This document shows, in pieces, positions 21,681 through 38,505 of a stretch of DNA of 38,844 nt (position 1 is the first letter of the stretch; each line of letters begins with the position of its first letter). Origin of the DNA: a virus; IMG/VR virus record IMGVR_UViG_3300043958_000214; one strand, written 5' to 3'. The position numbers and the translations under genes were made by a program. Under the pieces are notes generated by a model. It did no database searches. It was given only the letters and a program-made list of their open reading frames with translations, and was not told the origin of the DNA.

Positions 21681-22490
21681 TCAACGGCGCTCGCGGAAGT
21701 CGGTGGTTCGACGGGTGACATAGACCTGTCCGTCGGCGGACAGGCTGGGACCATCCCCGTATATGACGACCTCTGAGCCGTCGTGGGCGATCACGGACGT
21801 CTTGCCGGAGGCGACGATGAGGGAGTCCTTCCACGCCAGTCCCGTCGCTCTCCCGCTGAGATGGGCATAGGCACCCATCTTGACGTCGACGTCCGCCAGG
21901 TCGCGGGCCTCCACGTATGCTCCCCGCCCGACCGCGACGACGTGTGCCTGGCCGGACGCGCGGCACACTCCCCGATCGCCGAGGGCGACGCGGGATCTGC
22001 TCACGGCGTTGACGAGGATCGGGCCGCGAGTGAGGACGATGCCGTTGTAGGCCGTGACGACGGGGGCGTCGTTTTCGTCGTGCGCGTCGACGAGGACGAT
22101 CCCGTCGTAGATGTCGAGGGCTACCGGTGACTGGAGTCCGCTGACGCGTAGTTTCCCGCCAGGGTAGGTCGCGGTGGTGCTCCTGGTCTTCCTGGTCGTT
22201 GGCGGGTCCACGACGATCTTGCTGATCCTGCCCGCGTTGGCGATCTGGATGGCTTCGTTTAGCGCTTTCTGGGAGCGCACCACGGCTGACCGGTCTCTCT
22301 CTACGAGTTCTGCGTTGGGGTAGGTGTTCTCGATGGACTCGCGTTGGGGGAACTGATGGGGAAGTTGGAGTGGGGCAAAGGCTCGCTCGAGTTCAACGCC
22401 CTCCGCGTCGGCGTGGTCCTTCGGGCTGTATTGGCCGACGTTGGCGGGGTTGGCGCCACGGCGGTGTTTCGTCTCGTCATATGTGCTCAT
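21681..22490 (-). CDS. Shared-leader protein 1, with C-terminal beta-solenoid-like V-x-A repeats
   Basis: Starts MSTYDETKHRRGANPANVGQYSPKDHADAEGV. Confidence 0.75.
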   Translation of the reverse strand: MSTYDETKHRRGANPANVGQYSPKDHADAEGVELERAFAPLQLPHQFPQRESIENTYPNAELVERDRSAVVRSQKALNEAIQIANAGRISKIVVDPPTTRKTRSTTATYPGGKLRVSGLQSPVALDIYDGIVLVDAHDENDAPVVTAYNGIVLTRGPILVNAVSRSRVALGDRGVCRASGQAHVVAVGRGAYVEARDLADVDVKMGAYAHLSGRATGLAWKDSLIVASGKTSVIAHDGSEVVIYGDGPSLSADGQVYVTRRTTDFRERR

Positions 22491-22608
22491 GACTCTTCTT
22501 GTGCGGCAAGTCTTGGCTTGGCCTACGTCTCCCAGGTGGGCTGCGACGTTTTGTCGGGAGGGTCGGGGGCCTGTCGCCAATTCGTTGTCGGCCAGGTGGG
22601 GCGTACTT

Positions 22609-22663
22609 CGCCACGAGAGCGCCCCACCTGGCCGTGATGGTCGGGTGGGGCGCTCTCGTGGCG
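22609..22663. terminator. Long hairpin closing the array downstream of cas8e
   Basis: CGCCACGAGAGCGCCCCACCTGGCC-GTGAT-GGTCGGGTGGGGCGCTCTCGTGGCG. Confidence 0.65.
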
Positions 22664-22749
22664 TTTCCCCTCGTGAGAGGGGATCAATGGTTGCCGTGAC
22701 GTAGTGACTTTCCAGCCACTTGGCTCACCCCCACTCTCGTGGGGATAGA
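22659..22749 (-). CRISPR. Degenerate type I-E mini-array (repeat, 33-nt spacer, repeat) downstream of cas8e
   Basis: Minus strand: TCTATCCCCACGAGAGTGGGGGTGAGCCA (22749-22721), spacer AGTGGCTGGAAAGTCACTACGTCACGGCAACCA, TTGATCCCCTCTCACGAGGGGAAACGCCA (22687-22659); 62-nt period. Orientation is not certain. Confidence 0.6.
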
Positions 22750-22774
22750 ACCAGAGTACACCGACCGCCCTACT

Positions 22775-24175
22775 TCACTGCTCGGCGGCGGGCCGTGCTT
22801 CGTTCCACTTCTTGCGGATGACGTTGGGGAGGGCTGCTGGCGGGAATCCGGGGCGGGGCGGGGGGACGGGGCCGACGATGCGTTCGACTACCCGGCAGGC
22901 GTCTTCCACCCACCGGTCCAGGGCTTTTAGGTCGAGGCGGCGTCCGCGCAGGTAGGCGAGGATCGTGGGCGCAGTCCTCGCCTCCTGCTCTTCGGTGATG
23001 TGCTGGTGCATGGTTTGGACCCAGTCGCTGGGGGCGCCGGGGCGGCGGGAGGCGCGGGCGCTGACGATGATGTGGCTGACCTCCTCCGCAATGCCGGTGA
23101 GGGATTCGACTGTGCGGGCCCGCTCGGCCAGGCCGCTCGTGGTGAGGGTGAGGGTCTGGGTCTCAATGTCATCGATGCGGGAGCGCTGGGGGCCAAACCG
23201 GGTGATGAGGGTCTGGACGTCGAGGGTGGGGGGAAGGTCTGCGGGTGGGTCCTCCAGGAGTCGGCGCACGCCCACTGGGAGGGTGGCCCCCTTGGGGAGG
23301 ATGGCGGTCCATGGCTCCCCCGCCCACTCCGCTTCGCGGGGGATGAGGTTCCCGGTTCCGGCCAGGCGCATGAGGGCGTGGGGGTCGGCCGAGCGGATGT
23401 TGGTGGAGGGGAGCTGGTCGCCGTTGGCGATGAAGGCGCCGACCGCGTGGTCGTCCGCGTCGAGGGTGAGGCGCAGGCGGCGTCCCGGCCACACCAGGAC
23501 TCTCCCCGCCCCGACCTCGCTCACCTCATAGACGCCCCTGGGACGGTCCGCCTCGTCCTCCCACATGGGGGTTTCATCCCCGCCGTTGGGCCCCTCGGGC
23601 AGGTTCCAGATGATGGTGCGGTCCAGGGTGGGGTGGATGACGAGCGTGTTCGGGGCGACGGTGAGGATTCCGGGGCCCACGGGCATGGTCTTGCCTCGCG
23701 TGGTGCGCGCGTCTCCTGCGATGCCTGAGCGGATCCCGGAGGGGTCGGCGAGCATCCGGCGCAGGAGCGCTCGGGCCGCCACGTCAGGCCCCACGGCGTG
23801 CGGGACGGTGGCGCGGTTGGTGTCCATGGTGACCAGGCGGTCCAGCCCGTCGGGGATGGTGGGGTTGGAGGGGGCCACATCGTACTGGAACGCGCGGTCC
23901 AGGTCGAAGCGTGCGCGCCAGCGGGCGAGATAGGCGCGAATCTCCTCCAGGGGCAGGCCGCCCTCCCACACCTCGCGCCACGGGCGCCCTGAGCACACGC
24001 GCCACGTGATGGAGATGAGGAGCCGCTCGATGCTGCGCGCCTCCATAGGATCGTCGCCGCCCACCATGGCGATCGCGGGCGCCTGGGAGAACACGTCGGC
24101 CAGGGAGAGGGTCGGCTGGGTGCCGTCCCGGCTGACGACGGGGATCCACGGGTCATCAACGAGATTGAACACCAC
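22775..24175 (-). CDS. cas8e: Type I-E Cascade large subunit Cas8e (Cse1/CasA), solitary and divergent
   Basis: FNLVDDPWIPV...LSLADVF, RFDL...FQ, AARALL...DPSGIRSG, TLDRTIIWNL and WPGRRLRL motifs typical of actinobacterial Cse1. Confidence 0.88.
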   Translation of the reverse strand: MVFNLVDDPWIPVVSRDGTQPTLSLADVFSQAPAIAMVGGDDPMEARSIERLLISITWRVCSGRPWREVWEGGLPLEEIRAYLARWRARFDLDRAFQYDVAPSNPTIPDGLDRLVTMDTNRATVPHAVGPDVAARALLRRMLADPSGIRSGIAGDARTTRGKTMPVGPGILTVAPNTLVIHPTLDRTIIWNLPEGPNGGDETPMWEDEADRPRGVYEVSEVGAGRVLVWPGRRLRLTLDADDHAVGAFIANGDQLPSTNIRSADPHALMRLAGTGNLIPREAEWAGEPWTAILPKGATLPVGVRRLLEDPPADLPPTLDVQTLITRFGPQRSRIDDIETQTLTLTTSGLAERARTVESLTGIAEEVSHIIVSARASRRPGAPSDWVQTMHQHITEEQEARTAPTILAYLRGRRLDLKALDRWVEDACRVVERIVGPVPPPRPGFPPAALPNVIRKKWNEARPAAEQ

Positions 24176-24178
24176 CCC

Positions 24179-24544
24179 TCACCTCCCCAACCGCTTGTAG
24201 ACGGTGGACCGGGTGACGTGGGCGCGCTCAGCGATCTGGGCGATGGGCATGCCCTGGATGTCGGCGGCGACCATCGCGCCCTGCAGGCGGTCCAGGGCGT
24301 CCAGGTACCTCATCTGGGCGGCCCGTGCCTCCTCCCCCAGATCCTCCAGCGCGCCATCTCCGAGCGCGTACTGGGCGGCCCCGACCAGCTGCTCAGCCGT
24401 CATGCCCGCCTCGTCCTCCGGGGCGTCGGGCTCCTGATCCCGGTAGATCTCACGGATGCGGGCGGCCGCCCGCTGGAAAAGCCCCTGCTGCTCCTCGGTG
24501 CCGGCCCCGTCGAGGTAGGCCAGTGTTTCTGGCGTGATGTCCAT
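24179..24544 (-). CDS. Small protein with C-terminal HTH (Aca-like regulator candidate)
   Basis: GMPIAQIAERAHVTRSTVYKRL; CAGGAG RBS; stop lies 4 nt before cas8e. Confidence 0.75.
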   Translation of the reverse strand: MDITPETLAYLDGAGTEEQQGLFQRAAARIREIYRDQEPDAPEDEAGMTAEQLVGAAQYALGDGALEDLGEEARAAQMRYLDALDRLQGAMVAADIQGMPIAQIAERAHVTRSTVYKRLGR

Positions 24545-24602
24545 GATGTGCTCCTGCCGATCGCGTGTCTGATAGGGGTGTGCGTGTGTGTATAGTGGCC
24601 TC

Positions 24603-24693
24603 AGGTCCCCCGCGTAGGCGGGGGTAGGCCGTTCTCGTCGACGGCTGGCCAAGCCAATGGCTTGAACTTCCCCGCGTATGCGGGGGATGCGGG
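24603..24693 (+). CRISPR. Type I-E mini-array (repeat, 33-nt spacer, repeat)
   Basis: AGGTCCCCCGCGTAGGCGGGGGTAGGCCG (24603-24631), spacer TTCTCGTCGACGGCTGGCCAAGCCAATGGCTTG, AACTTCCCCGCGTATGCGGGGGATGCGGG (24665-24693); TATAGT -10 at 24591-24596. Confidence 0.75.
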
Positions 24694-24727
24694 ACCCGGG
24701 CCTTCGGGCTGGGGTCCCGCTTTTCTT
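24689..24727 (+). terminator. Intrinsic terminator after the mini-array (may also serve the convergent gene)
   Basis: GCGGGACCCGGGCC-TTCG-GGCTGGGGTCCCGC followed by TTTTCTT. Confidence 0.75.
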
Positions 24728-24730
24728 GGG

Positions 24731-25300
24731 CTAGGCGATCCGCTGGGCCTGCCCGGCGGCGTCGCGCACGACCTCCACGACCGCTTCGCCGTCCGCGAGG
24801 TCCGCCCACATGGCGGCGTGGAGCCCGTCCTCCTCGCGCCACACCACCGGTGTCCGCTCGTAGTCGCCCGGGTCCTCATCGAGGACCCACTCCCACCGCA
24901 CCGCCTCGTCGATGGCCTCCGCGCATGCGCGCTCGGCCGCAGCCCCCGCGTCCTCCGCCTGGGCATCGAGGCTGGGTGAGGGCTCCAGGGCCTCCGCCCA
25001 CTCCCTGAGCGAGTCCAGGTCCTCGAGCGAGTCGATGCTCAGCACGCGCAGGAGCTCGCCGGCGTGGACGCTGCCGTCCCCGTCCTCCTCGGGCAGGGAG
25101 GCCACATCCTCGATCTGCGTCCCCTCATCGGTCAAGTAGGTCCGGGCGGCGGCGCGGGGCACCCCGTCCTCGTCGAGGTAGCGGTCCTCGCGCATGATGG
25201 CGACCCGGACCCCCTTCCAGGCGGTGGCGGGGATCGTGTGGGCGATGATGCCCTCGGGCAGTGACCAGGAGCGGACCCGGTCCTCGATCGTGGCGGTCAT
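24731..25300 (-). CDS. Acidic hypothetical protein (anti-CRISPR candidate by context)
   Basis: 189 aa, D/E rich; AAAGGA RBS. Confidence 0.7.
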   Translation of the reverse strand: MTATIEDRVRSWSLPEGIIAHTIPATAWKGVRVAIMREDRYLDEDGVPRAAARTYLTDEGTQIEDVASLPEEDGDGSVHAGELLRVLSIDSLEDLDSLREWAEALEPSPSLDAQAEDAGAAAERACAEAIDEAVRWEWVLDEDPGDYERTPVVWREEDGLHAAMWADLADGEAVVEVVRDAAGQAQRIA

Positions 25301-25312
25301 GACGTGTTCCTT

Positions 25313-25723
25313 TCAGGCGTTCCAGATGTCGTCCGCGTGGTCGCGGATCCGGGAGAAATTCTCGATGCCGGCGATCCCGGTCTCGTCCTGCCAGTCGACC
25401 AGGTCAGAGACCAGGACCAGGAACTGCTCGGTGGTCTCGGAGTCGACCAGCTCGGCGGTCTCCGGGAGGATGAGGCGCTCACCCATCCGCTCGTCGCAGG
25501 GGGTGTCCTCGGAGGCGGGGCCCTCGATGCGGACCAGGACCGGGGCGCCGGCCTCGATCGCCATGACCGAGAGGTAGGCGGCGAGCTCGGGGAGCTCGTC
25601 CATACCGGACACCCCGTGGCGGACCGCCTCGTCGTCCCCGTTCATGGGGAAGGAGTACTGCTGCTCCGGGTCGAGGAGGTCACTGAGGCTGCGGTCCTTG
25701 TCCTGCATCCGGTAGGTGATCAT
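25313..25723 (-). CDS. Acidic hypothetical protein (anti-CRISPR candidate by context)
   Basis: 136 aa, D/E rich; GAGAGGA RBS. Confidence 0.7.
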   Translation of the reverse strand: MITYRMQDKDRSLSDLLDPEQQYSFPMNGDDEAVRHGVSGMDELPELAAYLSVMAIEAGAPVLVRIEGPASEDTPCDERMGERLILPETAELVDSETTEQFLVLVSDLVDWQDETGIAGIENFSRIRDHADDIWNA

Positions 25724-25754
25724 CTCTGGGGTCCTCTCTCCCTCGCCGATGACA

Positions 25755-25796
25755 CCAGTGTATAGGGGTAGACACTCATCTGTCTACCCCTATACA
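25755..25796 (-). promoter_or_regulatory. Housekeeping-type promoter overlapped by a perfect 16-bp inverted-repeat operator
   Basis: TGTATAGGGGTAGACA-CTCATC-TGTCTACCCCTATACA (25759-25796); minus strand reads TAGACA-18 nt-TACACT. Confidence 0.7.
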
Positions 25797-27746: not shown

Positions 27747-28436
27747 TCACCGACCGGCGTAGGCGACCTCGAAGGACTCGCCATTACGGAGGCTCTCAAA
27801 GTTGGGAGTGGTGACTACCCAGCCGGCCGCTCGAAGAGCCTCCCGGTAACGATCGGGTTCCCACTCCTCGTCGACCCAATCCGCTCCACCCTCCGCGCTG
27901 GGTGCGTAGTCCACGATCGTCGCCGCGGTCTCACCGTCAATGACGGCGAAATCCACGTCCTCGGCGTCCGGGACCTCGATGGCGATCTGCGTGCTGCCGT
28001 CACGGAAACACGCCGTCGCCTTCGTGCGCGCATGCCTGGCAAGAATCGCGCCTGCGTCGATATCGCCGATTTCTTCGACAATGGAGGCCCTCTCCTCCTC
28101 CGTCAGCGAATCATCCGATGCGGGGCCGACGATGAACGAGCCGTCGATCTCCCAGTTCGGACGGTACCGATGCAGGATCTCAGTGACCTCGCCCTCGAAC
28201 TCCTCGGTCGCCGCGTCTAGGTTGTAGTCATCGGCGTGATCGCCCGCGACCTCAGGCAGACCCCAACCATCTGCGAGATCATCCCCGCTCAGATAGGCCG
28301 CGGCGTTGCTCGTGATCTGCGTGCTCGGCTCGATCAAGCTCACCCCTTCCGCTTCGGCGTGGTCCTTCGGGCTGTACTGGCCGACGTTGGCGGGGTTCCC
28401 GCCGCGCCGATGTTTTGTCTCGTCGTAGGTGCTCAT
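27747..28436 (-). CDS. Shared-leader protein 2 (acidic)
   Basis: MSTYDETKHRRGGNPANVGQYSPKDHAEAEGV. Confidence 0.8.
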   Translation of the reverse strand: MSTYDETKHRRGGNPANVGQYSPKDHAEAEGVSLIEPSTQITSNAAAYLSGDDLADGWGLPEVAGDHADDYNLDAATEEFEGEVTEILHRYRPNWEIDGSFIVGPASDDSLTEEERASIVEEIGDIDAGAILARHARTKATACFRDGSTQIAIEVPDAEDVDFAVIDGETAATIVDYAPSAEGGADWVDEEWEPDRYREALRAAGWVVTTPNFESLRNGESFEVAYAGR

Positions 28437-28484
28437 ACCTCTCCTTGTGCGGCCCCGCACCACTACTATGACACAGCACACCCG
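28342..28484. repeat. 143-bp near-identical direct repeat (promoter plus leader coding sequence); second copy 29574-29716
   Basis: Offset of 1232 bp; aligned by eye; a more diverged copy sits at about 22395-22508. Confidence 0.85.
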
Positions 28485-29038: not shown

Positions 29039-29668
29039 TCAATACTCACCGGAGCCTACGTTCCAGACATCCTGCCAGTGCTCTCCGAAGAATTCCTCAG
29101 CACGCTCGGCCTGCTCTGCAAGCGCCCGAGACTTGGATTCCATACGCTCCAGATCCTCTTCATCTTCGATGGATTCTCCGAGCTCGTCCGCGAGTTCATC
29201 TGGGCTCATCCTCACAAAGTCGGCGTCTTCGGCGAACATGCGGACGGTCTGCGCGGCGTTCGGGCCGGATTGATGGATTCCGGTCCAAATGTCGGTGGCG
29301 AGGTGCTGCTCATCGCCACCGCTGTTGACGCGGTAGAGATGGACGATGTAGTGATCCTGATAGGCACCATGACGGTCATCGGACCCCAGGTACTGCGCGG
29401 TAGCAGTAACGCCGATAGATTCCAATAGATTCGCCGTCTCAATCTCCTCGTTGGGGAGGTCGAGGTGCCACGGGTTCAACATCGGGATGGGAGTCTCATC
29501 AATCGGGTGTGGCGCGTAACCCGTCAAGTCCCCGTGCGTGCCGGGGTCAAGTACCTTCTCTTTCATCAGAGCAACCCCCTCCGCTTCGGCGTGGTCCTTC
29601 GGGCTGTACTGGCCGACGTTGGCGGGGTTCCCACCGCGCCGGTGCTTCGTCTCGTCGTATGTGCTCAC
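29039..29668 (-). CDS. Shared-leader protein 3 (acidic)
   Basis: GTG start, then STYDETKHRRGGNPANVGQYSPKDHAEAEGV. Confidence 0.8.
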   Translation of the reverse strand: MSTYDETKHRRGGNPANVGQYSPKDHAEAEGVALMKEKVLDPGTHGDLTGYAPHPIDETPIPMLNPWHLDLPNEEIETANLLESIGVTATAQYLGSDDRHGAYQDHYIVHLYRVNSGGDEQHLATDIWTGIHQSGPNAAQTVRMFAEDADFVRMSPDELADELGESIEDEEDLERMESKSRALAEQAERAEEFFGEHWQDVWNVGSGEY

Positions 29669-29827
29669 ACCTTTCCTTGTGCGGCCCCGCACCGCTACTT
29701 TGACACAGCACACCCGAGGTCTCTGTTGCTTTCGTTGCAAGGCGAAGGGCTGGACGACGGCCGGCGAGCATCGGGGGTAGACGTCTAGAATGGTGCACCG
29801 GCCGAGGAGGAGTGGCACACACGAGGC

Positions 29828-30265
29828 ATGAGGACGATTCCCTTTACGGTTCTATCCGAACGCGCCACTCCCCCGTCTCGCGCCCATGAAGGCGATGCCG
29901 GCATCGACCTTTCCGCCTCGACGGCGGTGATCCTGGAGCCCGGCGAGAGGGCGCTTGTCGAAACGGGCCTGGCTGTCGCGATTCCGATTGGACACGTCGG
30001 TTTCGTCTGTCCTCGTTCCGGGCTGGCTATCAGGAAAGGCGTGACCGTCCTGAACGCGCCCGGCGTCATCGATGCCGGTTACCGTGGCGAACTGAAGGTC
30101 GCGCTCATTAATCTGGGGCGAGAGCGCGTCTCGATCCGTGTCGGTGAGCGGATCGCCCAGCTTGTCATCCAGCGGGTGGAAACCCCTGGGGTCGTCATGG
30201 TCGACGAACTCCCCCCATCGCTCGACGGCCGGGGCGAAGGCGGGTTCGGCTCCAGCGGACGCTGA
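29828..30265 (+). CDS. dut: dUTP diphosphatase (trimeric dUTPase)
   Basis: [30 protein letters not shown] and [10 protein letters not shown] motifs. Confidence 0.97.
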
Positions 30266-32893: not shown

Positions 32894-32922
32894 CTGTTCA
32901 TCCCCGCACTCGCGGGGACGTT
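32894..32922 (-). CRISPR. Solitary type I-E-like repeat unit, intergenic
   Basis: Minus strand AACGTCCCCGCGAGTGCGGGGATGAACAG; 29 nt with the 5+6+4+6+8 layout; no partner repeat about 61 nt away. Confidence 0.5.
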
Positions 32923-33302: not shown

Positions 33303-34349
33303 CTACTTGGATGACTCCCCTCTTAGCTGAATCTCGCTCAGGGGCTTGATTGAGTTCGCAGCGAGGGCCGCATACTCTCCATCTCGTTCAATACCTATGC
33401 TCTCGTAGCCGACCGCTTCCGCGGCTGCCAAGGTTGATCCAGACCCTGCGAAAGGGTCAAGGACGATGCCCTCGCCTAGCGGAAGAATTGCTCGAACAAC
33501 CTGTCGCAAGAATGCCTGGGGCTTTAGCGAGGGATGTGGAGCAATCTTACGTTCTGACGAGCGCGTTGGACCTGATCGGATCACATCTCCGAAGGGCTGA
33601 TCCTCAGAGATGCGCCTGAGCCCGCCCGTCTTCCATGTGCGAAGGTTCTGAGCCACTGTGCCTTCGACCGGTTTTCGGAAGAGCAACCAAGGCTCCCACA
33701 TGCTCCGTGGCATCACCGAGACATCTGCGAACTCCTCGTGGGCGTTCTTGGGGCGATCCCCTCCGCGCATCGTCTGGACGAGGCGAATCACCTCACCCCG
33801 GCGCTCAAAGCCTGCCATGTCTAAGGCTCTTGACACATGATGAGAAAGCAGTGGATTGCAGGCGAGCATGATGTGTCCGCCCGGGGTCAAGATTCGAAGC
33901 GCCTTCTCTCCAAACAACCGGAAGAAGCGCTCCAGGCTGTCGATATCGGCCGCGCTGAGCGTGGTAAACCTCGGGAGAGGCGAGCGCTGATGGCCGTCGA
34001 AGGAAGGCGGGATTCTCCAAACTCCACACTTGCCGTTTCTGAGCTTCGCCTGTTCGCGGGAGGTGTATTCGACCAGTCCGTAGGGCGGATCTGTGACGAT
34101 TCCGTGGATGCTTGACTCTGCTCTTTGGTCGAGCCAGTCGAGGCTGTCAGCATAGTAGAGCGTCGCCTTGCCGACAGTTGCTAGAGGTTCCTCAACGGAT
34201 GGTTCTGGCACTGCTGGCTCGGGAGGAGGCGTCTGGAGCAGCTGGTAGCGGACGTGCCCCAGCGAATCATCAACCGAACCGATGATCTCGCGCAGGGCGA
34301 GCGTGTCCTCTTCTGCGTCCACGCCCAAGGATCGGTGCGCCCGCCTCAC
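33303..34349 (-). CDS. N4-cytosine/N6-adenine DNA methyltransferase (beta class)
   Basis: IVTDPPYG, HPSLKP, VLDPFAGSGST; GTGA overlap with the upstream stop. Confidence 0.9.
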   Translation of the reverse strand: MRRAHRSLGVDAEEDTLALREIIGSVDDSLGHVRYQLLQTPPPEPAVPEPSVEEPLATVGKATLYYADSLDWLDQRAESSIHGIVTDPPYGLVEYTSREQAKLRNGKCGVWRIPPSFDGHQRSPLPRFTTLSAADIDSLERFFRLFGEKALRILTPGGHIMLACNPLLSHHVSRALDMAGFERRGEVIRLVQTMRGGDRPKNAHEEFADVSVMPRSMWEPWLLFRKPVEGTVAQNLRTWKTGGLRRISEDQPFGDVIRSGPTRSSERKIAPHPSLKPQAFLRQVVRAILPLGEGIVLDPFAGSGSTLAAAEAVGYESIGIERDGEYAALAANSIKPLSEIQLRGESSK

Positions 34350-35080
34350 GCGAATCCTCCACGCCACGCCATGCCCTCGGACTCCGCGGCTTGGCGGGTG
34401 GGCGCCTCGCTTGGGAACGGGTCCCAGATGGTCCCGCCCCGGGGTGTGGTCAGTCTGGCGAGTTCGCGCAGGAGTGCGAGCGGCGGCGTTCCGGTGTCGT
34501 CGGGTCCGGTCCAGAAGAAGCGGCTGGCTCCGCCTCTCTCGGCGCCCCTGGAGGGCGTGAGTTCGCGTTGGCCTGCGAACGGGTGGTAGACGGCTCGGAA
34601 CATGTCGCCTCCGCGTCGCGTGGGGTTCGCCCCGGACGTGAGGATCCCGGACTGTGTGTCCAGGGCGGCGACCGGGCAGGACGGGACGCAGCTTCCTGGG
34701 GTGCAGCCCACGGCGTGGGTGAACATGACGTCGGCCGGCCATCTTCCGACGGTCGAGGGCCCACCACCGATACGACACGCACCGACATTGAGCCCGCCGA
34801 CCCCGTGGCGAAGGACGTTGGCAGCGAATGTGCCGCCTGCAGGTTTGCGGGCGAGGACGATCGGGGTGATGGACCCGCCTTCGCGGATCCAGGCGATGGA
34901 GTCGAAGACGGTGAACCCGGCGTCCTCCACCTCGATGGCGAACCGGTGCCACGCGCCGAGGTGGGTGAGAGCGACGAGGTTCGCTCCCGGGAGGAGCCCG
35001 GCGAAGGTGTTTTCGGCCCAACCGTCGGGGCGCTCGTCGGGCGGGCAGGTGAGGACCGCGTGGGAGGGCGCACTCATCAT
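34346..35080 (-). CDS. Degenerate beta-class DNA methyltransferase paralogue (catalytic and SAM-binding motifs lost)
   Basis: VLTCPPD in place of DPPY; WDPFPSEAPT in place of DPFxGSGT; retains WHR...EDAGF, PIVLARKP and GRWPADV. Confidence 0.7.
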   Translation of the reverse strand: MMSAPSHAVLTCPPDERPDGWAENTFAGLLPGANLVALTHLGAWHRFAIEVEDAGFTVFDSIAWIREGGSITPIVLARKPAGGTFAANVLRHGVGGLNVGACRIGGGPSTVGRWPADVMFTHAVGCTPGSCVPSCPVAALDTQSGILTSGANPTRRGGDMFRAVYHPFAGQRELTPSRGAERGGASRFFWTGPDDTGTPPLALLRELARLTTPRGGTIWDPFPSEAPTRQAAESEGMAWRGGFA

Positions 35081-35994
35081 GCTGCTCTCCTCTCGCCGGT
35101 CACGCGCTCGAGACGTTGTTCGATGAGGGGCACGTAGGTCTCCTCGCGCTCGATCCCCACCCACTGGCGTCCCTCCAGGCTTGCGGCCTCCGCGGTCGTC
35201 CCGGACCCCAGGAACGGGTCGAGGACAGTGCCCCCTCGCTGCGCTGACAGTGTGATGAGGGTGCGCATGAGGGCTAGTGGTTTCACCGTCGGGTGGACCT
35301 TTCCGTCGGGTCCGACCGGCCGCTCCGATTTCGGGGCTTTTGCGCAGTAGAAGAACCGCTCCTGCAAGTCGTCGAGCGGCAGATGGACGGCGGGTCCGGG
35401 TTTGCGCGCGACAACGATCGGCTCGAATGCGGGACGCAGCTGCGTATTCCACCCCGCCCAGCGCTTCGCCGTCTCGGAGGTCGTGACCGTCACTGGTGTA
35501 GACCGGCGGTCGCTGTAGCCGCGCCCACCCGGATGGTCATGGAGCGCAGCGGCGGCCATCTTGTCCAGCGTCTTCGCGATGTTCTGTCCGTGGGGCATCC
35601 CCTGCCCATGAACCCACGCCAATGGCTCGTCCAGGATGAGGCCGGCGTCCTCCAGGCCGGCGGCGAGACGGTGCCAGGTCCGGGGGGCACCGAACGTGAG
35701 GCCGACGGCACCGGGCTTCATGACGCGGAGCAGGCGCTCTCCGATCGCCTTCGACCATGCCTCGAACTCGTGGACATCCGTGTCCGCATGCCCGCGCGAA
35801 TGCGTGCCCCCATAGGCGTAGGCGCCACGGCGCTCCTTGCCGGTGGCGATCTGACCGAGCATTGTCGGGTGGTCCCAGGACTGGCCCATGAAGTCCAGCG
35901 AGTAGGGCGGGTCCGTGACGACGGCGTCGATGCTGTCCGCGGCGAGGCATTCGAGTTCTGCGAGGGCGTCGCCGATGACGAGACGGCCGGTCAT
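35077..35994 (-). CDS. N4-cytosine/N6-adenine DNA methyltransferase (beta class)
   Basis: VVTDPPY, HPTVKP, VLDPFLGSGTT. Confidence 0.93.
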   Translation of the reverse strand: MTGRLVIGDALAELECLAADSIDAVVTDPPYSLDFMGQSWDHPTMLGQIATGKERRGAYAYGGTHSRGHADTDVHEFEAWSKAIGERLLRVMKPGAVGLTFGAPRTWHRLAAGLEDAGLILDEPLAWVHGQGMPHGQNIAKTLDKMAAAALHDHPGGRGYSDRRSTPVTVTTSETAKRWAGWNTQLRPAFEPIVVARKPGPAVHLPLDDLQERFFYCAKAPKSERPVGPDGKVHPTVKPLALMRTLITLSAQRGGTVLDPFLGSGTTAEAASLEGRQWVGIEREETYVPLIEQRLERVTGERRAA

Positions 35995-36269
35995 CGGTTC
36001 ATCGCCAGGGCTGTGTCATAGCGCTGCGTGCACCAACGCGCGTCCCCATACGTGAGAGCGAGGTTGAGTGGCGGCCAGAGAGCCAAACTGGCGAGAACGG
36101 CGAGAATGGTGGACGTGTGGACGGGATGCCAGATGAGGGTTTCGATGGCCAGAACCGCCAGGACGGCGAGTTCCACGACAGCATGCCATCGCGCGGTGAG
36201 CAGCTTCTCCTGCGAGTCGTACATGCGGCAGAACATGTAGTCGAGCGTTCGTCTGAGGGATGTGGACAT
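35991..36269 (-). CDS. Small membrane protein (two predicted TM helices)
   Basis: Hydrophobic segments; ATGA coupling to the methylase. Confidence 0.65.
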   Translation of the reverse strand: MSTSLRRTLDYMFCRMYDSQEKLLTARWHAVVELAVLAVLAIETLIWHPVHTSTILAVLASLALWPPLNLALTYGDARWCTQRYDTALAMNR

Positions 36270-36311
36270 GCCTTGTGTGTGCCAGACGTCCGAGCGCTAG
36301 CGAACACGGAG
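36267..36311. repeat. 45-bp direct repeat (promoter and start); second copy 37430-37474; the pair brackets the C5 methylase
   Basis: CATGCCyTGTGTGTGCCmGACGTCCGAGCGCyAGCGAACACGGAG. Confidence 0.85.
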
Positions 36312-36319
36312 CGTTGAGG

Positions 36320-37432
36320 CTAGAGGTGGAGGGCCTGCTTGACCGCTTCGGCGGCCGCGAGCGCGAGGCGCGGGGGAACGGCGTTCCCGATCTGGCGGTA
36401 CCGGGAGGACTGCGGGCCCTGCCATTCCATGTTGAGTGGGAACGTCTGGATGGCGGCGGCCTCCTCGACTGTCAGGCGTCGCAGGGGGTCGGGGGCGTTG
36501 CGTGTCGAGGCGTTGGCGCCCCGGTTGAGGAGGGCGGTGTGGTAGCCCACCACCCACGGTTCCGCGTTCTCATTCTCCAGGGCGAGCTGGTCGATGATGG
36601 GAGTCAGATTCCCGCCGATTGATGCGGCCAGGGTGAGGGAAGGCGCGTCGAGATCCAGGGGACGCCCTCCTCCGTTGAAGAGCATTCCCGCGTACGGTGA
36701 CCGGCACGTCTGGTTGTTGCCCGGCTTCCCGTAAGGGGAAAGCTGAGCGAGCGCTTCCCGGACCGTTGGGCTGTCCAGCGGAGTGGTTGGTACAGGGGCG
36801 ACCGGCTGTCCGACATCCTTGTGAACCCCGAGGAACAGCATCCTCTCCCTCGACTGCGGGACCCCGAAGTGGGCGGCATTCACTAGGGTGAGCGCGGTGT
36901 TGTACCCCAGAGTGTCGGCGCGTTCGAGCAGCCTTCTGCGGACGTCCTCCCAGCGCTTGCTCTGGTAGAGGCTCTTCACGTTCTCCATGACGAACGCCTT
37001 GGGGTGGACGCGCTCGACCATGTCGAGGAAGTGAAAGACGTGCTGGGAGCGCGGGTCACCGGGGTCCATCTTTCCTGCGACGCTGAATCCCTGGCAGGGC
37101 GGGCCACCAATGACGAGGTCCGCCGAACCTTCTCCCGGAAGTTCGTCCTCGGGGATGGCGAGGAGGTCTCCTATCCTGGTGGCGTGACGGGTCCCCCTGA
37201 GGTGGGGGCGGGTTTCCGTGAGCCGCTCGAAGGCCTTGTCGTGGGTCCGGGACGCCCACGGGGTGAGTTCGTTGGTCCACACAGGCGCGAACCCGGCGAG
37301 GGCGAATCCGATGTCCAGTCCGCCGGCTCCGGCGAACAGGGACACGTACGTGGCGAGCGGCGTGTCGTGCGTCGGGACGTCACTGTAGTCGCTGAGCGGG
37401 TGGTCACCTCTGTGCTCCGGTGTGGCGGGCAT
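36320..37432 (-). CDS. C5-cytosine DNA methyltransferase (orphan)
   Basis: SLFAGAGG, GGPPCQGFS, MENV, PQSRER, RRLTVEE, QIGNAVPP. Confidence 0.95.
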   Translation of the reverse strand: MPATPEHRGDHPLSDYSDVPTHDTPLATYVSLFAGAGGLDIGFALAGFAPVWTNELTPWASRTHDKAFERLTETRPHLRGTRHATRIGDLLAIPEDELPGEGSADLVIGGPPCQGFSVAGKMDPGDPRSQHVFHFLDMVERVHPKAFVMENVKSLYQSKRWEDVRRRLLERADTLGYNTALTLVNAAHFGVPQSRERMLFLGVHKDVGQPVAPVPTTPLDSPTVREALAQLSPYGKPGNNQTCRSPYAGMLFNGGGRPLDLDAPSLTLAASIGGNLTPIIDQLALENENAEPWVVGYHTALLNRGANASTRNAPDPLRRLTVEEAAAIQTFPLNMEWQGPQSSRYRQIGNAVPPRLALAAAEAVKQALHL

Positions 37433-37576: not shown

Positions 37577-38278
37577 TCAGTAGCGAGGGGCCAGGTCGCC
37601 GCGTTCGCGCATCCGGTACTCCACGTTGGAGACGTTGACCATGACGCTGCGCCCCCGAGTGGCGAGCGCTCGCTCGCTCTCAGCGCGCGAGTTCTCGATC
37701 CACTGGGCGGCGGACTTTCGGGTTGCGCCGCGACCTGCGACGGCGCGGGGTGTGATTGCGCCGGCATCGAGTTGTCTGCGCAGGTCGTCGTAGTGGACGA
37801 GGTCTCGCTTGAAGTCGTCCTCCGAACGCCCCACTGATTCCCCGCGCCAGATACTCTCGAACTCGTCCTCGAAGTCCTCGGGGATTGGCAGCCCCTGCTC
37901 GTAGGCGCGACCGAAGAACTCGTAGCGGGCGTGGAACTTCGCGGACTTCTCGACCTCCTCGGGGTCGAGGTTCTCGTCGACGTAGCGTTCCCATTCGGCC
38001 AGATTCGCCTTGGAGCGGCGCTTCCCTGGCATGTGCCGTTCGAACGTGTCGACCGCCCTGTTCCAGACTGCTTGGTCTCGCGCCTGCTCACGCCCCCATT
38101 CGCGATCCTCGTCCGTGACCATCTGGTCCGGGGCGATGAACTCCGCGAGCATCTGCTCCCGCGTCGGGGATGTCCCCAGCTGAAGGTCCGGGGCCTCGCC
38201 ATACGTCCGGGTGGTCCACTGGCCAGTGTTGTTCGGGTTGCCGCCGCGGGGATGATCCGCTTCGTTGTAGGTGCTCAT
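37577..38278 (-). CDS. Shared-leader protein 5
   Basis: MSTYNEADHPRGGNPNNTGQWTTRTYGEAPDLQL. Confidence 0.8.
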   Translation of the reverse strand: MSTYNEADHPRGGNPNNTGQWTTRTYGEAPDLQLGTSPTREQMLAEFIAPDQMVTDEDREWGREQARDQAVWNRAVDTFERHMPGKRRSKANLAEWERYVDENLDPEEVEKSAKFHARYEFFGRAYEQGLPIPEDFEDEFESIWRGESVGRSEDDFKRDLVHYDDLRRQLDAGAITPRAVAGRGATRKSAAQWIENSRAESERALATRGRSVMVNVSNVEYRMRERGDLAPRY

Positions 38279-38505
38279 GACCATCCTTGTGCGGCACGAG
38301 ACGGACGTCGAGTGGAGTACTTCGCTCACGCCCCACTGGCGCCATACCCCATTCTGAGGCGCAAGACACTAGGTGAGCAGACCCACCTGCAATGCTTGAA
38401 GAACGGCGGGGAAGATGTCCTTGCTCAGATGATGATCCGGGCCGATCTTCCGGCAACCGCGCAGAACGTCGGATCCGGCTCCACTGCCGTACCCAGCGAG
38501 ATGGA

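What the first reader, a model, noticed from the sequence alone, without database searches (positions are those of the whole stretch)
22609..25796. Solitary cas8e flanked by two single-spacer mini-arrays plus an HTH gene: candidate Cascade-hijacking or anti-CRISPR module
Seen: a clear Cse1/Cas8e gene with no cas3, cas11, cas7, cas5, cas6, cas1 or cas2 anywhere in the window. It is coupled to an HTH gene and has a repeat-spacer-repeat-hairpin unit on each side. Known: Cas8e reads the PAM and recruits Cas3, and it cannot work without the other Cascade subunits; viral stand-alone cas homologues and repeat-like RNAs have been shown to act as anti-CRISPRs in other subtypes. Inference: the element supplies its own large subunit and guides to reprogram host I-E Cascade. 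It could change PAM or target choice against competitors, or form a Cas3-blind complex that inhibits immunity or represses genes. The short (466 aa), divergent-looking C-terminus fits loss of Cas3 recruitment.
Basis: partly seen in the sequence, partly recalled or inferred. Interest (0 to 1): 0.92.

Follow-up and report, generated by a model that had tools for sequence, protein, structure and literature searches.

The report
Lone Cas8e with seed-only guide RNAs
A large mobile element of a sludge actinobacterium carries a stand-alone, remodelled copy of the CRISPR protein Cas8e beside two tiny guide-RNA genes, and relatives on unrelated plasmids and phages suggest this is a conserved, so far undescribed kit for disabling or redirecting the host's type I-E CRISPR defence.

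Summary
In detail: an intact cas8e, a translationally coupled HTH gene and two repeat-spacer-repeat-hairpin units. This Cas8e belongs to a separate clade (9 lineages, 30-41% identical, plus an 82% relative) found on actinobacterial plasmids, conjugative elements and prophages. No other cas gene lies near it in any locus, the same HTH family precedes it in 8 of 9 lineages, and dN/dS is 0.18-0.44. The guides keep only their 5' part across related elements (17 of 18 bases, the one difference at flipped position 6), as regulatory Cracr RNAs do. No target was found. The two parts are separable: arrays were seen in 3 of 9 lineages and also occur without cas8e. Best reading (0.55): an Aca-type counter-defence cassette with a Cas8e-derived inhibitor plus seed-only guides. 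Inhibition is untested. Unchecked scan notes place a Cas3-bearing I-E operon about 60 kb away on this contig. The scan earlier saw an orphan Cas8e operon on a Xenorhabdus plasmid (e1-2470148).

The parts
22609..22663 (.). 25-bp hairpin closing unit B; likely terminator of the HTH-cas8e-array B transcript (inference)
   Evidence: 92% complementary arms; fold z -10.3 for the whole unit; different hairpins sit at the same place in L005, L006, L010, L154
22664..22687 (-). Unit B, repeat 2: Cas6e-type stem-loop without a 3' handle
22688..22720 (-). Unit B spacer, 33 nt; first 11 nt identical in L119 and phage G005, position 12 differs in all three
22721..22749 (-). Unit B, repeat 1: 29-nt I-E-type repeat with stem-loop and 8-nt handle
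   Evidence: 16-22 of 29 identical to host I-E repeats
22775..24175 (-). Stand-alone cas8e (466 aa) of a mobile-element clade; L1 motif lost, glycine loop and four-helix bundle kept
24179..24544 (-). 121-aa protein with C-terminal HTH; Aca-like regulator (inference), same family upstream of cas8e in 8 of 9 lineages
24569..24596 (+). Promoter-like site for unit A
   Evidence: 2 sites found in 3.6 kb, 0.2 expected
24603..24631 (+). Unit A, repeat 1: 29-nt I-E-type repeat with handle
   Evidence: handle conserved in L005 and G005
24632..24664 (+). Unit A spacer, 33 nt; positions 1-18 match phage G005 except position 6, positions 19-33 match at 2 of 15
24665..24693 (+). Unit A, repeat 2: stem-loop with degenerate handle, running into the terminator
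24689..24727 (+). Terminator-like hairpin with T tail
24731..25300 (-). 189-aa very acidic protein (pI 4.1), no family; homologues sit in the same cassette of phages L005 and G005; Acr candidate (inference)
25313..25723 (-). 136-aa very acidic protein (pI 4.05), no family; Acr candidate (inference)
25757..25796 (-). Promoter-like site covered by a long inverted repeat (25759-25796); likely operator of the HTH protein (inference)
   Evidence: 0 of 100 shuffles as good; in two runs an abundant contig joins this region straight to a relative of the HTH gene

Best explanation
The region is a self-regulated counter-defence cassette against type I-E CRISPR-Cas with two separable parts. (1) The stand-alone Cas8e is an exapted paralogue used as an anti-CRISPR protein: it keeps the Cas8e fold and the PAM glycine loop but has lost the L1 motif that anchors Cas8e in Cas5e and on the crRNA handle, so it most likely acts as a faulty subunit or decoy that competes with the host Cas8e for Cascade or Cas3 (inferred; the partner is not known). 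(2) The mini-arrays are cut by Cas6e supplied in trans and load Cascade with guides of which only the first 11-18 bases pair with a DNA target; such partial pairing gives binding without cutting, so they repress a defence promoter and also use up Cas proteins, as Cracr RNAs do (inferred). The HTH protein represses the palindrome-covered promoter, as Aca proteins do (inferred). Shown here: anatomy, clade, synteny, selection, L1 loss, 5'-only guide conservation. Not shown: expression, binding, inhibition, target.
For: Separate clade with a long stem (SH-aLRT 99.8, quick tree). No other cas gene near it in 23 + 34 loci. Contexts are plasmid, conjugative-element and prophage genes; one locus has a weak AcrVA2-like gene nearby. 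Same HTH family directly upstream in 8 of 9 lineages; inverted repeats beyond chance upstream in 5-6 of the 7 lineages tested. dN/dS 0.29 (0.18-0.45) against L119 and 0.18-0.44 in four other lineages. L1 segment 19-23 residues against a median of 28; the F129-equivalent (80% of 126 other Cas8e) is missing in 8 of 8 and the F-x-x-R motif in 8 of 8; L1 inserts into Cas5e and reads the handle (PMC5965380, PMC4787809). Guides conserve 5' ends only; relatives have short spacers of about 17-22 nt, like CracrIE1/2 of 24 and 21 nt (bioRxiv 10.1101/2024.10.29.618823). Precedent for Cas homologues as inhibitors: AcrIB3 and AcrIB4 (bioRxiv 10.1101/2023.06.24.545427).
Against: No functional data. No guide target found. 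No neighbour matches a known I-E Acr or Aca family. The host is unknown. The same contig seems to carry its own Cas3-bearing I-E operon (unchecked notes), which an inhibitor could also hit. Alignment of the L1 loop is uncertain at 30-35% identity and the model has pLDDT under 50 there. Spacer A of L005 differs from the window's at several non-flipped positions.
Confidence: 0.55

Rival explanations
1. Subunit swap and reprogramming: the Cas8e replaces the resident large subunit and works with the co-encoded guides as a repress-only or PAM-altered Cascade aimed at host defence genes or rival elements.
For: Arrays follow the cas8e stop directly in 3 of 9 lineages (window/L119, L006, L010/L120), far more than expected for random mobile-element genes. 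The glycine loop is kept. AcrIF24 with short-spacer Cracrs is a precedent for a protein and guides working together (bioRxiv 10.1101/2024.10.29.618823).
Against: No array seen in 6 of 9 lineages; the same guides occur without cas8e; L1 docking motif lost; C-terminal bundle kept.
Confidence: 0.22
2. Pro-defence or inter-element role: the Cas8e is a sponge for anti-CRISPR proteins that bind Cas8e, or an alternative subunit for the element's own distant Cascade, and the guides are aimed at competing elements.
For: Unchecked notes put a Cas3-bearing, adaptation-less I-E operon on this contig. Viral mini-arrays usually target related viruses (PMC11656645).
Against: Seed-only conservation does not fit cleavage of a rival. 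No protospacer in viral collections. Relatives on 28-35 kb plasmid contigs and prophages show no cas genes in the 8-21 kb read. The notes' coordinates give 5,275 bp from cas3 start to cas7 start, within the 4,710-6,333 bp of 40 control operons that hold cas8e and cas11, so that operon probably has its own cas8e.
Confidence: 0.13
3. The mini-arrays are pure decoy RNAs (Racr-like) with no DNA target, and spacer similarity only reflects descent.
For: No target found. Spacer B and the L119 spacer are 25 of 33 identical, close to the synonymous divergence of the gene.
Against: 5' block conserved while tails are unrelated or of other length in three elements (17 of 18 vs 2 of 15); first differences fall on positions 6 and 12; handles are intact, whereas RacrIF1 lacks one (PMC10651486). 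This rival concerns the RNAs only and is compatible with the protein part of the best explanation.
Confidence: 0.07
4. Decaying remnant of a type I-E system.
For: Degenerate repeats; some relatives look broken (L152, P0208).
Against: dN/dS 0.18-0.44 in five lineages, intact ORFs at 30-41% identity, clade-specific invariant residues, conserved partner gene, one cluster of 247 members.
Confidence: 0.03

Closest known systems
AcrIB3 and AcrIB4, viral Cas5 and Cas8b homologues of Listeria (bioRxiv 10.1101/2023.06.24.545427)
   Same: Orphan cas homologue on a mobile element, forming its own clade apart from the operon-encoded proteins.
   Different: Type I-E, Actinomycetota; full-length large subunit, whereas AcrIB4 matches only the last 90 residues of Cas8b; inhibition not tested here. 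The term I-E does not occur in that paper's main text, and its search removed hits near arrays.
Cracr RNAs, including the Salmonella prophage CracrIE array and the acrIF24-linked I-F Cracrs (bioRxiv 10.1101/2024.10.29.618823); regulatory mini-arrays of Shmakov et al. (bioRxiv 10.1101/2023.03.03.530964)
   Same: Degenerate repeats, one to three spacers, short or 5'-conserved spacers, own promoter and terminator, position in a counter-defence locus beside a protein gene.
   Different: No matching host CreR/CreA or cas promoter target found; partner protein is a Cas8e paralogue; cas8e is not mentioned in that paper's main text.
Racr RNAs (PMC10651486)
   Same: Repeat mimics in mobile elements that need host Cas6.
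   Different: Two repeats with intact handle and a conserved seed, not a solitary repeat. The lone repeat at 32894-32922 fits Racr better.
acr-aca operons, Aca1-Aca14 (PMC13551039)
   Same: HTH gene in an operon whose promoter is covered by an inverted repeat; small acidic neighbours; exchangeable cargo genes.
   Different: The HTH family (helical N-terminus, C-terminal HTH) was not assigned to a numbered Aca; no known acr gene beside it.
Canonical type I-E Cas8e (E. coli CasA, T. fusca Cse1)
   Same: Fold over the whole length, glycine loop, four-helix bundle.
   Different: No cas11/7/5/6 neighbours, about 40-100 residues shorter than the median 550, L1 motif lost, 44 of 96 columns conserved in the comparison set are not kept.

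Membership tests
Cas8e (Cse1) protein family | Profile match and two-domain fold with C-terminal four-helix bundle | tested here: met
Cas8e (Cse1) protein family | L1 loop motif that docks into Cas5e and contacts the crRNA handle | tested here: not met
   F129-equivalent absent in 8 of 8, present in 80% of 126 others; loop alignment is uncertain
Canonical type I-E locus | cas8e in an operon with cas11, cas7, cas5, cas6 | tested here: not met
Cas-homologue anti-CRISPR (AcrIB3/AcrIB4 kind) | Orphan cas gene on a mobile element, own clade | tested here: met
Cas-homologue anti-CRISPR (AcrIB3/AcrIB4 kind) | Inhibits interference while the true subunit does not | not testable with these tools
   needs an interference assay
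Cracr / crlRNA | Degenerate mini-array with handle, stem-loops and 5'-conserved spacer in a mobile element | tested here: met
Cracr / crlRNA | PAM-flanked partial match in a cas or toxin promoter, or a matching host CreR/CreA | tested here: inconclusive
   nothing above chance in 94 cas loci and about 700 genomes; the true host was not available
Cracr / crlRNA | Cas6-dependent processing and repression | not testable with these tools
   needs small-RNA sequencing and reporter assays
Racr | Solitary repeat without a targeting spacer | tested here: not met
   two repeats and a conserved seed
Aca regulator | HTH gene with inverted repeat over the operon promoter | tested here: met
Aca regulator | Sequence membership in Aca1-Aca14 and linkage to a validated acr | tested here: inconclusive
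   only generic HTH matches in Pfam, PHROGs, PADLOC, Atlas; no Aca-specific profiles were run
Aca regulator | Binds the operator and represses | not testable with these tools
   needs EMSA or reporter

The most novel reading that the evidence does not exclude
The mobile element swaps the large subunit of a resident Cascade for its own L1-less Cas8e, and the chimeric complex works with the seed-only guides as a repress-only machine while ordinary crRNA complexes are disabled: a natural subunit-exchange reprogramming of Cascade.
Probability: 0.2. Interest if true: 0.9.

Novelty: new variant of a known kind. Interest (0 to 1): 0.76.

Why it matters
It adds a full-length large subunit of type I-E to the short list of Cas proteins that mobile elements have probably turned against CRISPR. 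I found no description of this clade in the papers searched. It gives a directly testable inhibitor candidate for actinobacterial I-E systems, a new Aca-like marker family for finding more inhibitors, and natural L1-less Cas8e variants for studying how the large subunit joins Cascade.

Tried and rejected
No whole genome is held and the 124-192 kb source contig could not be searched, so the distant cas operon was not read. Complex prediction of the Cas8e with an actinobacterial Cas5e: no answer; not used as evidence. No RNA holder listed. Spacer targets: exact and near searches in viral contigs, phage records and metagenome contigs gave nothing or chance-level hits without a consistent PAM or extension. 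Seed plus AAN PAM in 502 Actinomycetaceae and Propionibacteriaceae genomes was at or below the reversed-pattern control and never near cas genes. One seed match in a CRISPR leader (L086) is within chance; the leader pattern was in 0 of 201 further genomes. A 9-nt match of spacer A to the cas7 TAVDD codons lacks a PAM. Internal hairpins in the spacers are no stronger than in shuffles or host spacers. No self-target in the window. Host spacers from 94 loci do not match the window beyond chance. Rfam gave only a weak CRISPR-DR28 hit. Host assignment through lysin and primase searches reached only 'actinobacterial'. Two structure papers were not held, and the Cas3 contact residues of E. coli Cse1 are too variable in the alignment to score, so Cas3 binding is untested. 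The clade was not found in viral contigs or in the plasmid and phage records.
Full report
Observation. The window holds an intact 466-aa ORF at 24175-22775 (-) that matches Cse1/Cas8e in Pfam (E 1.3e-44) and PADLOC. A 121-aa HTH gene ends 3 nt before its start. E. coli Cas3, Cas11, Cas7, Cas5, Cas6 and Cas1 give no tblastn hit in the window, while 91 of 94 control cas8e loci give hits. Two repeat-spacer-repeat units with I-E-type stems, a period of 62 nt and 33-nt spacers flank the gene pair; none of 500 simulated windows held such a pair. Unit A is on the + strand with a promoter-like site and a terminator, divergent from HTH-cas8e. Unit B is on the - strand 25 nt after the cas8e stop. In each, repeat 1 has stem-loop and handle, and repeat 2 has only the stem-loop before a hairpin, the parts needed to release one crRNA-like product (inference). 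The four genes of the cassette have GC3 of 0.84-0.96, higher than most neighbouring genes.

The protein is a clade, not an accident. A search of 1.8 billion representatives gave a small set of near full-length matches at 34-41% identity, well above ordinary Cas8e. With the contigs fetched there are nine lineages. They form one branch with a long stem (SH-aLRT 99.8, quick tree of 55 proteins). They sit next to relaxase and coupling-protein genes, ParA and resolvase genes, integrases or phage tail and lysin genes; one named host is Brachybacterium sp. DNPG3. None has other cas genes in the DNA fetched. In eight lineages the gene directly upstream belongs to one HTH family, and the upstream regions carry inverted repeats beyond chance in 5-6 of the 7 lineages tested. 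dN/dS is 0.29 (0.18-0.45) against the 82% relative and 0.18-0.44 in four other lineages. A decaying remnant is excluded.

What changed in the protein. The model (mean pLDDT 77) has both domains, including four C-terminal helices at 349-465, and aligns end to end with T. fusca Cse1 (Z 30.2). The glycine loop is kept. The L1 segment is 19-23 residues against a median of 28, and the phenylalanine equivalent to E. coli F129 and the following arginine, present in 80% and 87% of 126 other Cas8e proteins, are missing as a motif in all eight tested. L1 inserts into Cas5e and contacts the crRNA handle (PMC5965380, PMC4787809). The loop is hard to align and poorly modelled, so this is a likely, not certain, loss. 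A complex prediction gave no answer and is not used.

The guides. Related elements from the same kind of sample carry the same cassette. L005 and the complete 42-kb phage G005 have the 189-aa gene, unit A, a longer HTH gene and unit B, but no cas8e there. Spacer A of the window and of G005 agree at 17 of the first 18 positions, the exception being position 6, and at 2 of the last 15. Spacer B has the same first 11 bases in the window, L119 and G005, differs at position 12 in all three, and has an unrelated, shorter tail in G005. Every sixth base is flipped out and unpaired in Cascade (established knowledge; also noted). The 5'-versus-3' contrast is strong; the coincidence with positions 6 and 12 rests on two cases and is only suggestive. 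Internal folding does not explain it. Relatives have spacers of about 17-22 nt. This is the pattern of Cracr RNAs, which direct host Cascade to repress cas promoters. I found no target, but the host genome was not available.

How the parts relate. Arrays follow cas8e in three lineages and were not seen in six (a strict stem test plus reading of intergenic DNA, so very degenerate units could be missed). Arrays occur without cas8e. In two sequencing runs an abundant contig joins the palindromic promoter region directly to a relative of the HTH gene with another gene behind it. The constant element is thus the HTH gene with its operator; cas8e, acidic genes and arrays are exchangeable cargo, as in acr-aca operons (PMC13551039).

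A complication. Unchecked notes from other windows of this contig describe cas3 with a 5-repeat array and cas7-cas5-cas6e without cas1/cas2, 58-67 kb before the window, and a conjugation module. I could not fetch that DNA. From the notes' coordinates, cas3 start to cas7 start is about 5,275 bp, inside the 4,710-6,333 bp range of 40 control operons with cas8e and cas11. It does mean that Cas6e and Cascade could come from the element itself, and that the element may be conjugative and not a phage.

Mechanism and odds. Most likely (0.55): a self-repressed counter-defence cassette in which the L1-less Cas8e acts as a faulty subunit or decoy and the arrays act as seed-only repressor guides. Subunit swap with joint action of protein and guides: 0.22. 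Pro-defence or inter-element role: 0.13. Pure decoy RNAs: 0.07. Remnant: 0.03.

Novelty. Both principles are known: Cas homologues as inhibitors (AcrIB3, AcrIB4) and viral regulatory guides. A conserved clade of full-length, L1-less Cas8e with its own HTH partner on actinobacterial mobile elements, sometimes with such guides, was not in the papers searched. An earlier scan note reports a shrunken orphan Cas8e in an acr-aca-like operon on a Xenorhabdus plasmid; I did not test whether it is related. Verdict: new variant of a known kind, interest 0.76.

Noticed in passing
window 32894-32922 (-): Solitary near-canonical I-E repeat 21 nt upstream of a 177-aa ORF; Racr-like or a Cas6e site in a leader.
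   Followed up: partly
about 58-67 kb before the window, same contig: Earlier notes describe an adaptation-less I-E operon with cas3 and a 5-repeat array; spacing suggests it has its own cas8e and cas11. An element with both a Cascade and a likely anti-Cascade cassette is unexplained.
   Followed up: partly
window 24632-24645 and L005 1886-1899 (-): The first 14 bases of the two A spacers differ at six positions, all transitions, while the flanks are about 90% identical. Unexplained.
   Followed up: partly
L154 625-800 (phage G005, complete, 42,409 bp): Three-repeat array combining the window's B seed with the L005 B spacer, after a 261-aa-type HTH gene; no cas8e in the genome.
   Followed up: yes
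L006 5420-5660 and L010 11525-11630: Mini-arrays with short spacers (about 17-22 nt) directly after cas8e.
   Followed up: partly
window 22380-22507, 28327-28484, 29572-29716, 38218-38296: Four genes share a similar 5' segment of 60-140 bp (72-93% identical), a repeated N-terminal motif.
   Followed up: no
L015-L018, L132-L151: The largest group of the clade (cluster of 247 members) lies on 28-35 kb contigs, in L015-L018 with a TrwC relaxase and coupling protein, probably small conjugative plasmids.
   Followed up: partly
L019 11421-11828: An HNH endonuclease-like gene follows cas8e in this lineage.
   Followed up: no
window 33303-37432 and 29828-30265: Several DNA methyltransferase genes (two N6/N4, one C5) and a dUTPase near the cassette; the called genes of L004 add a Dam-like gene.
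   Followed up: no
L155-L196: The B seed preceded by four A bases recurs in intergenic-looking DNA of several actinobacterial genomes, twice inside a short inverted repeat (L189, L196); not above control counts.
   Followed up: partly
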